Source: Octopus vulgaris (Eukaryota). From it: a stretch of 64,000 bases of DNA. How positions within the stretch are numbered: the stretch's first letter is position 1; the number at the start of each line of letters is the position of its first letter. Under the pieces are notes generated by a model. That model did not search any database. It was not told the origin of the DNA and saw only the letters and a list, made by a program, of their open reading frames with translations. The translations under genes were made by a program, and so were the position numbers. This document shows positions 3,418 through 46,922 of this stretch, piece after piece. Where the stretch lies: positions 4,402,001 to 4,466,000 of the forward strand of contig OX597817.1 in assembly GCA_951406725.2 (NCBI GenBank). Reading direction: 5' to 3'.

Positions 3418-3586
3418 CGCGACCTGTTCACTGAAAAAATCCGTGCAGCACGGATTTTTGTCAGTGAACAGGTCGCGGATTTTAGCGACGAAAATATTTT
3501 GACAAATGACACTTAAATGTTGAAGTGAATCGAACGGCTTTTGTGTGTTTCTTAAATGGTTTACAAACACCTTCCACGCTGCAATT
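3418..3586 (+). mobile_element. Penelope pLTR-like fragment (family A) with terminal palindrome and hammerhead motif
   Basis: ~29-bp inverted repeat at 3418-3477 and hammerhead-like fold at 3459-3504. It ends at (TA)n. Homologous copies lie at 2660-2830 and 18715-18800. Confidence 0.65.
3459..3504 (+). ncRNA. Minimal type I hammerhead ribozyme motif, G3-C8 variant
   Basis: TGTCA|GTGAACA|G GTCGC-GGATTTTA-GCGAC|GAAA|ATAT|T T|TGACA: 5-bp stem I, 5-bp stem II, palindromic stem III loop. Confidence 0.6.
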
Positions 3587-3604
3587 ATATATATATATAT
3601 ATAT

Positions 3605-4982
3605 AGAATAGGAATAGAGGCAATTCAATACTGGCTAGAGAATCACGCCAACGAACTCCCACATCGCATCAAAAAAGAATTCGTGATAGAAGGGGTTAAA
3701 TTCATCCTGGAAAATAACTTCTTCGCCTACAAAGACAACTTCTACCGACAAAAATCGGGGACTGCTATGGGTACGCGAATAGCCCCCTCCTTTGCCAACA
3801 TAATCATGGGATATTTAGAAATCAGTCTGTATCGTAAGGTTCTAGAAAGATATGGCAGCCCTTTCTCCCTCTACATAGAAAACAACTAGAGGAGATACCT
3901 AGATGACTGTTTCATCCTTTGGCATGAAAATATAGAGAAACTCAAAGAATTCCAAGCAATTTTAAATGGACTGGACGTAAACATCCAATTCACCATGGAA
4001 TATAGCCAGCAACAACTCCCCTTCCTCGATATCCTTATTAAGAAATATAATAATGTAATAGAAACAGATATATACTACAAGCCTACAGATTCTAAGCAAT
4101 ATCTTCCTTTCAATTCATGCTACCCCAGACACACCAGCATGAACATCCCCTTCAATCTAGCAAAAAGGATATGCACTATAGTTTCTAATGCAAACAACAG
4201 AGACACACGACTACAAGAACTAAAAGATACCCTCATTACCAGGAACTACCCACCTTCACTTATTGACATATGCATTCAACGTGCCCTCCAACTCAACATC
4301 CAGGAACTCAGACATCCCAAATCAAAGAAACATTTACGACCAAAACCCTTACCATACATCTCCACACACAACCCTCACAACAATGAGGTCTTCGACACCA
4401 TCCTCCACAAATCCTCCTAAAAATGACCACAGAATGAACACAATTCTCCAAACACACATGATCATAAAAAGCAAGAAACAGCCTAAATCTATGAAAAGTC
4501 TCCTAACACAAGCCCGAATACACTCTACAACACAGAAGCCGACAGTAAAAAAATGTGGAAGACCATATTGCGGGATATGCGATTATCTAATTGAAGGATC
4601 AGAGTTCTCCATCAAACAGGGACAACGGTTTACAGTGAAAAGCAACTTCACATGTGCTTCGGAGAACCTTATATACACACTAACCTGCTCTGGGTGTCAA
4701 GAGCAGTACATAGGCCAAACGAAAAATAGTTTGCGTAAAAGAATGGCCGTGCACAGATCCCAGATAAAAATTCCCCAAAACAGAAAAATAACATTCAGCC
4801 AACACATAGATACTTGCGCCAACAACAAAACACCAAACTTCAGGATTTTCCCCCTCTACCAATTCAGGGACGATACAACCTCGAGCCAACGAATAAGTAA
4901 AGAAACTCTCTTTATTACAAAATATAAGCCCCTTCTGAACGGGTTTACGACAAACGATATATACCCCTCTGCCTTAGAATAA
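3605..4982 (+). pseudogene. Penelope RT/GIY-YIG endonuclease polyprotein, disrupted
   Basis: ORFs 3545-3889, 3995-4420 and 4263-4982 join into one reading. There is a stop at 3887-3889 and a frameshift near 4410. Confidence 0.9.
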
Positions 4983-5589
4983 CACAAATACACACGCAAA
5001 TATTACATTCCTAAGAATCCACTACAAATCAGCCCCAATCACAGCTATAACCCATAGCGTGTCAACTTTAAGTCATACAACACCTCACTACTTCCACTCA
5101 TTCATATTCTCCATCATCTTTCTTCCTCTTCTTCTTTCCCCTCTTCATCATCATCATCATCATCATTATCATCATCATCATCATCATCATCTTCTACCTC
5201 CTCTTCTTCTTCTTCTTCTTCTTCTTCTTCTTCTTCTTCTTCTTCTTCTACTACTTCCTAACTTTATCACTAATGCTTTTTAGTATAACACCTACGCAAA
5301 TTCTATAGACAAACCTTTCAATAGAAATACTGTCATGAACTGATAGCGGCCACTGACCATTCTAAATACAACAATCAAGGCACTCCTAAAATTTTCCCCC
5401 CTTCTCCTCATCATCCTTCTTCTTCTTCCCTACCAAGAATTCACAAAGACCTCGAACCCACAAGTGTGAACAAGAGAGACAGAGTAAGGCAGAAACAAGG
5501 AAAATGCCACTTATATTTGAACATTATACAAATATTCCTTTAAAAAAACATTTCTTTTAATTTTTCTCAATTTAATTATTTAATCGTTA

Positions 5590-5627
5590 CAGTTGAAAAG
5601 GTCTCAAAATGACTGAAACCGGTACTG
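5590..5627 (+). ncRNA. Minimal hammerhead ribozyme motif, U3-A8 variant, in Penelope pLTR
   Basis: CAG|TTGAAAA|GGTC-TCAAAAT-GACT|GAAA|CCGG|T A|CTG. Confidence 0.6.
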
Positions 5628-44600: not shown

Positions 44601-44667
44601 ATTGAAACAGATGGCGATGACGGTGGTAGGGTTGAGAACGAGGATAATGATTCCAATGGAGCTGAAC

Positions 44668-44902
44668 ATAATAATAATAATAATAACAACAGCAATAATA
44701 ATAATAATAATAATAACAACAACAACAACAACAACAACAACAACAACAATAATAATAATAATAATAATAATAATAATAATAATAATAATAATAATAATAA
44801 TAATAATAATAATAATAATAATAATAATAATAATAATAATAATAATAATAATAATAATAATAATAATAAGAAGAAGAAGAAGAAGAAGAAGAAGAAGAAG
44901 AA
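44668..44902. repeat. Compound (AAT)n(AAC)n(AAT)n(AAG)n microsatellite
   Basis: Direct read. A similar (ATT)n(ACT)n tract lies at 45345-45480. Confidence 0.95.
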
Positions 44903-46880
44903 GTGGAATGTCACTTAACTTTGCGCTACATGTTACGGGTGATCATGGAAAATATGAAAATCAATGGTAATAACATCTTTGAGAGAAATCTTTTGAAGTA
45001 ATGGATTCTCGGATTATAATGTTAAGGACAAAATCGGCTGTTATTGAAATTGTATAGATATATTAGTACTTCTTATTGAGCAGGTGCAAATTGAAGTAGA
45101 GTTGTGTAGTAAGTGATCGGGCTATTGATAGTAGTTGCTGTTGATAGAAATAAAGTTAATATTTTCCGTACATATTAAAGGCATTATCATATAAATATGT
45201 AATATAATATCGATAGATGAACATTTAAAGTCGAGCGGAAATAAAAACTTTTAAAAAGATCAAAGATACGTTAATATTTTTGTGCATCTAACCTTATCAT
45301 TTGTTACATCTGATAATAACAATGAGAACCTCAAAAACAATAACATTATTATTATTATTATTATTATTATTATTATTATTATTATTACCACTACTACTAC
45401 TACTACTACTACTACTACTACTACTACTACTACTACTACTACTACTACTACTACTACTACTATTATGATAAATAATAATAATGATAGCAGCAATAATTTG
45501 GCTTATTTAATACCATATAACAATGAGCTACTAAAAGGGGTCCAGAATGTACGTGAGGATGTGTATGCATAATTGAATGAAAACCTGGTCGGTGGTGGTG
45601 GTGGTGGCGGTGGTTCGGTATAAGAAGTTATACAATATATCGAGATATATTAAAAATTGGTAATATACGTTATGCAGATAAATAATAGAAAATTTATAAA
45701 TAAGTATATATATATATATATATATATATGTATAGACATACACGCATACACAGAGACAGACACAAACACACATACATAAGTGCAAGCGCGCATACACACA
45801 CACACACACACACACACACACACACACATATATATATAGGGAGAAGGGATACAAAGTACAAGCAATGACATTTGAAGTACAGCGTCGGAGTTAACTTGGC
45901 TAACCAAATTGTCCAATATATAAATTCAGACTTGATATCCCAAGCAATTCGGAACAAGGTTATGGAGCAAAGTTGTAAAAAACAAAAGTATGGTAAATTT
46001 TACGCATACTTCAGTTACAGTGGTAATCCTAGCAGTACGTTGAGGCATTTTGAAGGATCGTTTAATATGCAGGATTAATAAATCGCAGAATTGTTTCAAT
46101 ACATATATATCTGAAAGTATATATATATATGAGAGGTATTGGTATCTAGAAGACTCAAAGAGTGGCAATTAAGGAGTGTTAGAGGGAAAAGGTGTGTTAG
46201 TTGGTGGTGTTAGCTCCATTATATTACCCCTACTCACATATCTCAAACGTATTCACTCTGTATCTACTCATCTCTTCCTATCCCTCCTCAACTCCTCTCC
46301 CATCCACCCCTCATATTATCTTGACCACCAACTAACACTTCGTTTCTCACTTCTTTCACCCGTTCTTCACTTTTTACACTCTTTTCATTTTTACTCTTTC
46401 ACTTTTTCTCCCTTTCTTCCTTTCATTTTCTCTTCCTGTTTTTATTTTGACCTATCCCCTCATTATAATCATGCGCATATCTCTCTGCACCCCCAAACCA
46501 TTTATCTACAAATACTACCAATACTTTCAAAAATTTTCATTCACACCACAAGATACTTTGGAATGAGCAACACAGAATCTACGACTCCATACTTGGAAAT
46601 GACTAAACATGAACTATTGGAACTTGCATATCGTGTACAGGAGACTTTTTTTTACCACTTCTATATACCACTTTCCTTGACGTGTACAGGAGATTTTTTT
46701 AACCACTTCTATATACCACTTTCCTCGAATAATGGAACTGCACCTACAACATTTTTATATATTTGATATTTTATTTCTACTTTCATTCTCTTATTTCACT
46801 CTATATTCTCTATCTCCTCCTTTTCCATAATAATTCCTTATTTCTGACTCAAATATTTAACTTTATTTAACCATTTTACA

Positions 46881-46922
46881 TCGTCTCTGATGAAGAATAA
46901 TATCTCAGAAAAAGCTGTACGA
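46881..46922 (+). ncRNA. Hammerhead-like motif with canonical CUGAUGA core in a pLTR-like remnant
   Basis: TCGT CT|CTGATGA|AGA-ATAATA-TCT CA|GAAA|AAGCT GT|ACGA. Lies ~80 bp upstream of (TA)n. Stems are partly decayed. Confidence 0.5.

What the first reader, a model, noticed from the sequence alone, without database searches (positions are those of the whole stretch)
3459..46922. Penelope-terminal hammerhead ribozymes with three different compensatory pairs at catalytic positions 3-8
Seen in sequence: four minimal type I hammerhead folds with short stems I/II, GAAA and a palindromic stem III loop. The cores read CUGAUGA (46887, C3-G8), UUGAAAA (5593) and UUGAUAA (minus strand 32501-32545, both U3-A8), and GUGAACA (3464, G3-C8; the same core is kept in the decayed copy at ~2800). 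Established: hammerhead catalysis needs a Watson-Crick 3-8 pair, and Penelope pLTRs carry minimal hammerheads thought to act as dimers. Inference: both bases changing together points to selection for self-cleavage in separate families, and scans for CUGANGA would miss the variants.
Basis: partly seen in the sequence, partly recalled or inferred. Interest (0 to 1): 0.75.

Follow-up and report, generated by a model that had tools for sequence, protein, structure and literature searches.

The report
Penelope hammerheads with swapped core pair
Several jumping-gene families in this animal genome end in a small, likely self-cutting RNA, and three sister families each carry a different matched base pair at the heart of its cutting site; one version (G3-C8) I found in print only as a lab-made mutant, and cutting is untested.

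Summary
Three of the four motifs are real: 3464 (G3-C8), 5593 and 32541-minus (both U3-A8) are intact minimal type I hammerhead folds (shuffles give 0.05 per window). 46887 is a decayed copy of an ordinary C3-G8 family. Each pair is fixed in its family (G3-C8 in 110 of 114 copies). In 1.0 Mb sampled across the genome, 20 of 21 strict motifs have a Watson-Crick 3-8 pair. The G3-C8 family ends an autonomous RT/GIY-YIG Penelope-like element; it does not belong to the ORF beside it in the window. Its two sister families (54-62% protein identity) carry C3-G8 and U3-A8 in the same scaffold, so the covariation is homologous. Penelope minimal hammerheads, dimer action and U3-A8 in Penelope elements are published (Cervera 2014). 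Natural G3-C8 was not found in my searches, but the largest survey (Lunse 2017) was not available. Against a strict catalytic reading: other families fix A6U, U4C or A9C, copies do not pile up at the cut site, and cleavage was dispensable for insertion in the one tested element. The scan noted G3-C8/U3-A8 swaps once before, in a phage. Verdict: new variant of a known kind, moderate interest.

The parts
3457..3506 (+). Family A hammerhead fold, G3-C8: stem I 3457-3463/3500-3506, core 3464-3470, extra G at 3471, stem II 3472-3476/3485-3489, GAAA 3490-3493, 6-base palindrome 3493-3498, U17 at 3499 (predicted cut after it)
3418..3584 (+). Short 5'-truncated family A insertion with an inverted partial copy at its 5' end (about 3418-3450, minus), ending at a (TA)n run; lacks the last ~60 bases (tail)
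2660..3200 (-). Older, decayed family A 3' end; core GUGAACA kept at 2790-2784, G12 and stem II damaged; upstream limit approximate
   Evidence: (82% to a young copy)
3602..4982 (+). Broken RT (C-terminal half) and GIY-YIG ORF of family B; one stop and a frameshift
5590..5627 (+). Family B hammerhead fold, U3-A8: stem I 3 bp, core 5593-5599, stem II 4 bp (G.U at 10.1-11.1 in this copy), palindrome 5618-5623, A17 at 5624; 613 bases after the ORF
33186..34863 (-). Broken RT and GIY-YIG ORF of family C
32501..32545 (-). Family C hammerhead fold, U3-A8: stem I 4 bp, core 32541-32535, stem II 5 bp, 6-base palindrome, A17 at 32505; 644 bases after the last ORF match
46883..46925 (+). Decayed copy of family D hammerhead, canonical C3-G8; stem II deletion, broken palindrome; no ORF found for this family
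32223..32260 (+). Fifth motif, family K: C3-G8 with U at position 6 (CUGUUGA)
5969..6027 (-). Second decayed D-like copy, core reads GUGAUGA (mismatched 3-8)
18641..18796 (-). Family A tail-only copy without the hammerhead core

Best explanation
Three of the four motifs are intact minimal hammerhead folds at the 3' ends of three different Penelope-like retrotransposon families, each family fixed for its own Watson-Crick 3-8 pair, and they likely let the element's RNA cut itself slowly with help from a second copy or the element's protein; the fourth is a decayed copy of an ordinary C3-G8 family. Shown: fold, position after RT/GIY-YIG ORFs, family fixation, and three different pairs in three sister families. 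Inferred: read-through RNA folds stems I and II locally; stem III likely forms between two motifs through the palindrome or is held by the element's protein; the 3-8 pair would position the 2'-OH of residue 8 as general acid, so its geometry matters and its base identity matters less; the cut after N17 would release or trim element RNA. Selection would act only on the few master elements; the thousands of scattered copies decay.
For: Window: 3 strict hits against 0.05 by chance. Genome sample: 20 of 21 strict hits Watson-Crick (U-A 9, C-G 6, G-C 5, C.A 1) against 1.3 hits per Mb in shuffles, 0.4 of them Watson-Crick. Clusters: 11 of 13 multi-copy clusters have a Watson-Crick majority pair. Family A: G-C in 110 of 114 copies, 30 of 33 among copies picked by ORF; subfamily-level changes in 0 of 39 core and stem columns, 3 of 8 loop columns, 13 of 165 flank columns (Fisher p 0.047 with the loop, 0.14 without). 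Sister families A, H and A2/A3 form one clade (SH-aLRT 98, quick tree) with G-C, U-A and C-G; 6 of 11 pairs of their shared structure change on both sides. Contigs of four public runs under four other organism labels show no letter change of 5% or more at 3464-3474 while loop II varies. In an anole Penelope hammerhead C3G and G8C each abolish cleavage, the double mutant partly restores it, and cleavage needs the element's protein (PMC11167929).
Against: No cleavage was measured. Family K has U6 in 26 of 26 copies, many J copies have C4, and the young A2 subfamily has C9, changes expected to slow catalysis (PMC3088659 on A6C and U4C). Among 117 unselected copies of 8 families none starts within -3 to +5 of the cut site. 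The family A palindrome gives almost no duplex energy (-0.2 kcal/mol against -8.3 for B) and A2/A3 has no palindrome, so a simple dimer is doubtful there. Catalytic mutants did not affect insertion in vitro and no RNA ends were seen at the cut site in anole; Penelope minimal hammerheads cleave poorly in vitro. The sister-family covariation rests on three lineages only.
Confidence: 0.72

Rival explanations
1. The hammerhead-like fold is kept mainly as a structure (binding site for the element's protein, pause or export signal); the 3-8 pair matters for shape and cutting is negligible.
For: Fixed A6U, U4C and A9C variants in successful families; no pile-up of copy starts at the cut site; cleavage dispensable for insertion in vitro; Naiads spread without canonical hammerheads (PMC8557442).
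Against: The 3-8 pair forms in the active conformation of the core (established knowledge; recalled), so keeping it across families fits catalysis better than a generic binding role; U4, G5, A6, A9, G12-A15.1 and U16.1 are kept in most families.
Confidence: 0.2
2. The variants are hitchhikers: one master element mutated and its copies spread the word without selection on the pair.
For: Identity among copies of one family only reflects shared descent; single copies carry mismatches freely (5 of 32 D segments; 6023-minus).
Against: 11 of 13 clusters are Watson-Crick and the two others are descriptor artefacts with core mismatches; random matching of the 11 gives p about 4e-4 (families are related, exclusion was after the fact); at least two double changes are needed inside one clade, one of them a double transversion.
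Confidence: 0.06
3. The motifs are chance matches to a short pattern.
For: The pattern is short; 53 singleton hits under a relaxed descriptor are spread over all 16 combinations; one of the 5 G-C hits in the sample (L131) is not family A and is probably chance.
Against: Shuffle controls; fixed sense-strand position after RT/GIY-YIG ORFs in families A, B, C, H, A2.
Confidence: 0.02

Closest known systems
Minimal type I hammerheads of metazoan Penelope-like elements (Cervera and de la Pena 2014, PMC4209133; text parts 1-2 of 4 and supplement file 2 parts 1-2 of 3 read)
   Same: Type I layout, short palindromic helix III, extra base after A9 in some families, G10.1-C11.1, position in the terminal repeat after the RT-EN ORF, mostly solitary or inverted copies; U3-A8 reported in Schistosoma Cercyon elements (about 1,300 hits).
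   Different: No G3-C8 among the listed representatives in the supplement text I read (U3-A8 in two S. mansoni rows, U3-G8 in one Saccoglossus row); no cephalopod row; no sister-family comparison.
Small dimer-cleaving hammerhead variants of Penelope-like elements (Lunse, Weinberg, Breaker 2017; not held, seen only as a citation and through the review PMC6765202)
   Same: Diminished palindromic stem III, dimer model.
   Different: Cannot tell whether its alignment already holds G3-C8.
Anole Poseidon element PAc hammerhead (PMC11167929; passages and second half of main text read)
   Same: Penelope hammerhead in which the 3-8 pair was tested; C3G/G8C partly active.
   Different: There G3-C8 is an engineered rescue mutant; here it is the natural state of a high-copy family. 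PAc's ORF starts inside the hammerhead; no such tandem junction was found for family A.
Natural core variants of hammerheads (Perreault 2011, PMC3088659; passages read)
   Same: Natural U3-A8 covariation; natural changes at positions 4 and 6.
   Different: The passages name U3-A8 only; its figures and supplements were not seen.

Membership tests
Minimal type I hammerhead of Penelope-like elements | Core N3-UGA-N-N8-A, GAAA, UH with a Watson-Crick 3-8 pair | tested here: met
   3464, 5593, 32541-minus; family majorities
Minimal type I hammerhead of Penelope-like elements | Stems I and II closing the junction, with covariation | tested here: met
   98.7% of cells paired in three sister lineages
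Minimal type I hammerhead of Penelope-like elements | Short palindromic stem III | tested here: met
   A, B, C and family D; not met by the window copy at 46887 nor by sister family A2/A3
Minimal type I hammerhead of Penelope-like elements | Sense-strand position in the terminal repeat after an RT/GIY-YIG ORF | tested here: met
   A about 1.0 kb, B 0.6 kb, C 0.5-0.65 kb after the ORF
Minimal type I hammerhead of Penelope-like elements | Same, for family D (46887) | tested here: inconclusive
   Inverted partner copies seen but no ORF in about 1 kb of shared upstream sequence
Minimal type I hammerhead of Penelope-like elements | Self-cleavage after N17, as dimer or protein-assisted | not testable with these tools
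   No bench data; only contigs were available for laying
EN+ Penelope-like element | RT followed by C-terminal GIY-YIG with two cysteines inside the motif | tested here: met
   Families A, B, C, A2, H; Pfam RVT_1 does not score family A's RT, whose YVDD motif is read from the sequence
EN+ Penelope-like element | 5'-truncated copies, inverted partner, optional 3' tail, (TA)n targets | tested here: met
   Family A loci; definitions from PMC8557442
Neptune or Nematis clade | CX2-5CxxC linker before GIY-YIG | tested here: met
   Present in A, A2, H, B, C (definition)
Neptune or Nematis clade | Placement of A/A2/H in Nematis and B/C in Neptune by tree with named references | not tested
   No named references at hand; the two groups are separate deep lineages; the clade names are recalled from RT motifs

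The most novel reading that the evidence does not exclude
Family A is the first natural, high-copy hammerhead with the inverted G3-C8 pair, active with its protein, and the A/H/A2 trio shows a retroelement lineage crossing a double-transversion valley in a ribozyme core: cleavage is under long-term selection yet dispensable long enough for a dead intermediate to spread and be repaired. Tens of thousands of Penelope hammerheads per genome would then be invisible to current descriptors.
Probability: 0.35. Interest if true: 0.62.

Novelty: new variant of a known kind. Interest (0 to 1): 0.42.

Why it matters
Whether Penelope hammerheads need to cut is open: they cleave poorly alone, and cleavage was dispensable for insertion in the one element tested. 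Three sister families that keep the 3-8 pair by three different routes are comparative evidence that the active-site geometry is selected, and they hand over natural swap and rescue constructs with near-intact proteins (open frames up to 1025 residues). For annotation, 14 of the 20 Watson-Crick strict hits in the sample would be missed by CUGANGA; family A alone is roughly 11,000 copies (95% range 3,000-29,000, from 4 hits per Mb). The U3-A8 half of the finding is already in print, which caps the surprise.

Tried and rejected
Rfam scan: no hammerhead family among 150 of 188 matches shown. Reading 3464 as the upstream repeat of the ORF at 3602: rejected, a (TA)n run separates them and the ORF's own motif is 5593. 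Reading 46887 as intact: rejected. ORF for family D: none found. Expression: no RNA holder listed on record, contigs only, no verdict. Pile-up of copy starts at the cut site: none in 117 copies (one at -4, five at +6 to +11; BLAST ends are fuzzy). G3-C8 outside these animals: a metagenome pattern scan gave 120 stretches, 80 fetched, 10 with a stem II, none with stems III and I; relatives with flanks: one weak viral-collection locus, not examined, and none in prokaryote genomes. An apparent G3.G8 core in L248 was decay of a C3-G8 subfamily. The idea that G3 forces U17 to avoid a G3-C17 trap (hint in PMC3884650) is not a rule: B and C have U3 with A17. Tandem junction of family A running into its ORF: not found in the loci held. 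Papers not held: Lunse 2017, Przybilski and Hammann 2007, Martick and Scott 2006.

Full report
Observation. I wrote a descriptor that leaves positions 3 and 8 free and asks for stems I and II, GAAA and a perfect palindromic stem III. It returns 3464+ (G3-C8), 5593+ and 32541-minus (U3-A8); a fourth raw hit at 57637 lacks the palindrome. One hundred local dinucleotide shuffles average 0.05 strict hits, maximum 1. The site at 46887 fails. Set against 33 other segments of its family it has lost 7 bases of stem II, the palindrome and part of stem I. The old copy near 2800 is on the minus strand and has lost G12. Only 3464 folds clearly better than shuffles as a monomer.

Families. The window lies in a 2.8-Gb animal genome rich in microsatellites; the closest named relative of the family A protein is from Octopus vulgaris. 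Each motif belongs to a dispersed repeat family. B has UUGAAAA in 36 of 36 segments, C has UUGAUAA in 30 of 33, and D has C3-G8 in 27 of the 32 segments that cover the core; these sets were picked by likeness to the window copy. For A, 110 of 114 copies have G3-C8, including 30 of 33 picked through the ORF and 5 of 5 from the unselected sample (removal of duplicate loci was approximate). Contigs of public runs under other organism labels carry the same cores, with no change of 5% or more at 3464-3474 or 5593-5599.

What they belong to. B and C follow broken RT/GIY-YIG ORFs in the window by 613 and 644 bases. The motif at 3464 is a separate short insertion with an inverted partner, cut off from the B ORF by a (TA)n run. 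Walking upstream from longer copies led to family A's own RT/GIY-YIG ORF about 1 kb before the motif, with many near-intact copies; of 35 C-terminal matches in those loci 25 show GUGAACA downstream and 10 gave no descriptor hit. A copies show the Penelope marks described in PMC8557442 (passages read): 5' truncation, inverted partner, optional tail, (TA)n targets. For D I found inverted partners but no ORF.

Is the pair covarying? First, an unselected sample: 100 stretches of 10 kb at round coordinates. Of 54 hits with at most one core mismatch, 22 had an intact core; dropping one with G17 leaves 21: U-A 9, C-G 6, G-C 5, C.A 1. Shuffles give 1.3 per Mb, 0.4 Watson-Crick. One G-C hit is probably chance. 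Second, clustering 384 relaxed hits from all 369 genome loci plus the window gives 13 multi-copy clusters: 5 C-G, 5 U-A, 1 G-C, none A-U, and two left out as artefacts (the antisense strand of D, and a two-member cluster with core mismatches); 53 singletons are spread over all combinations. Third and strongest, homologous families: A, H and A2/A3 share 54-62% protein identity and form one clade, A outside H plus A2 (quick tree, SH-aLRT 98 and 99). They share A2.1-U1.1, an extra G after position 9, G10.1-C11.1 and a five-pair stem II, and carry G3-C8, U3-A8 and C3-G8. Six of 11 pairs change on both sides; with three lineages and a structure read from these sequences, the shuffle numbers there are not probabilities. 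B and C belong to another deep lineage and also use U3-A8.

Mechanism. Most likely these are slow, assisted self-cleaving RNAs. The 2'-OH of residue 8 acts as general acid (PMC6155905, passages); G8C cuts the rate strongly and C3G partly restores it (PMC8495972, passage). The same rescue was shown in an anole Penelope hammerhead, which cleaved only with the element's protein (PMC11167929). That explains why the pair, and not the base, is kept. C-G to U-A needs two transitions through a wobble; G-C needs two transversions with no Watson-Crick or wobble step between (inference). Palindrome strength favours dimers for B, C and D and hardly for A or H, so protein help is the better guess for A.

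Against. Core constraint is not strict everywhere: family K has U6 in 26 of 26 copies while position 7 varies, 13 of 23 J copies have C4, and the young A2 subfamily has C9 where its older relatives mostly have A9. Copy starts do not pile up at the cut site. In anole, catalytic mutants inserted normally in vitro and no RNA ends were found at the cut. A structural role for the fold therefore stays open.

What is known. Cervera and de la Pena 2014 describe this class, the palindromic helix III, low dimer activity and U3-A8 in Schistosoma elements; the supplement text I read lists no G3-C8 (file 1 and part 3 not seen). Perreault 2011 report natural U3-A8. For natural G3-C8 I searched the library with G3-C8/G3C8/C3G terms, pair terms, core words, double-mutant terms and octopus terms and found only engineered uses. 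Lunse 2017, the largest survey of these variants, was not held and may contain it. The 2026 retrozyme preprint was searched by terms only. Earlier scan notes held no match to this sequence; one phage note mentions such swaps.

Verdict. A real and well-supported family-level covariation in a known ribozyme class. U3-A8 is known; a natural high-copy G3-C8 family with C3-G8 and U3-A8 sisters looks unreported but is unverified against the key paper and untested at the bench. New variant of a known kind, interest 0.42.

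Noticed in passing
window 32223-32260 +: Very common family K with core CUGUNGA: U6 fixed in 26 of 26 copies while position 7 takes all four bases. No ORF link sought.
   Followed up: partly
L132:2573+, L211:5566+, L334:860+: Related family J with C at position 4 (CCGACGA) in 13 of 23 copies.
   Followed up: partly
L326:4375-4425 +: Young, near-identical A2 subfamily with long open frames has C9 and U17 and a non-palindromic stem III loop; older relatives mostly have A9 and C17.
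   Followed up: partly
L258:4500-4540 +, L138: A further RT/GIY-YIG family has a very small motif with only a 2-bp stem II and U3-A8 or U3-G8 in the two copies seen.
   Followed up: no
L159:60-170 +, L087:660-780 +, L162: GC-rich U3-A8 families (F/G) with C17; two copies 362 bases apart in L162 may be the 359-base retrozyme-like repeat noted elsewhere in this scan.
   Followed up: no
window 58762-61945 -, 48003-48551 +: Long non-LTR retrotransposon ORFs (RVT_1 match for 58765-60618).
   Followed up: no
window 29389-29937 -: Mariner-type transposase fragment (Mos1 HTH match).
   Followed up: no
window 3418-3606: Family A and family B pieces sit head to tail in one (TA)n site; Penelope families here often nest in each other's microsatellite flanks (also K facing C at 32150-32400).
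   Followed up: partly
P0001-P0120: The family A protein has many unnamed relatives at 33-56% identity on short public contigs; their 3' ends would be the place to look for more 3-8 states.
   Followed up: no
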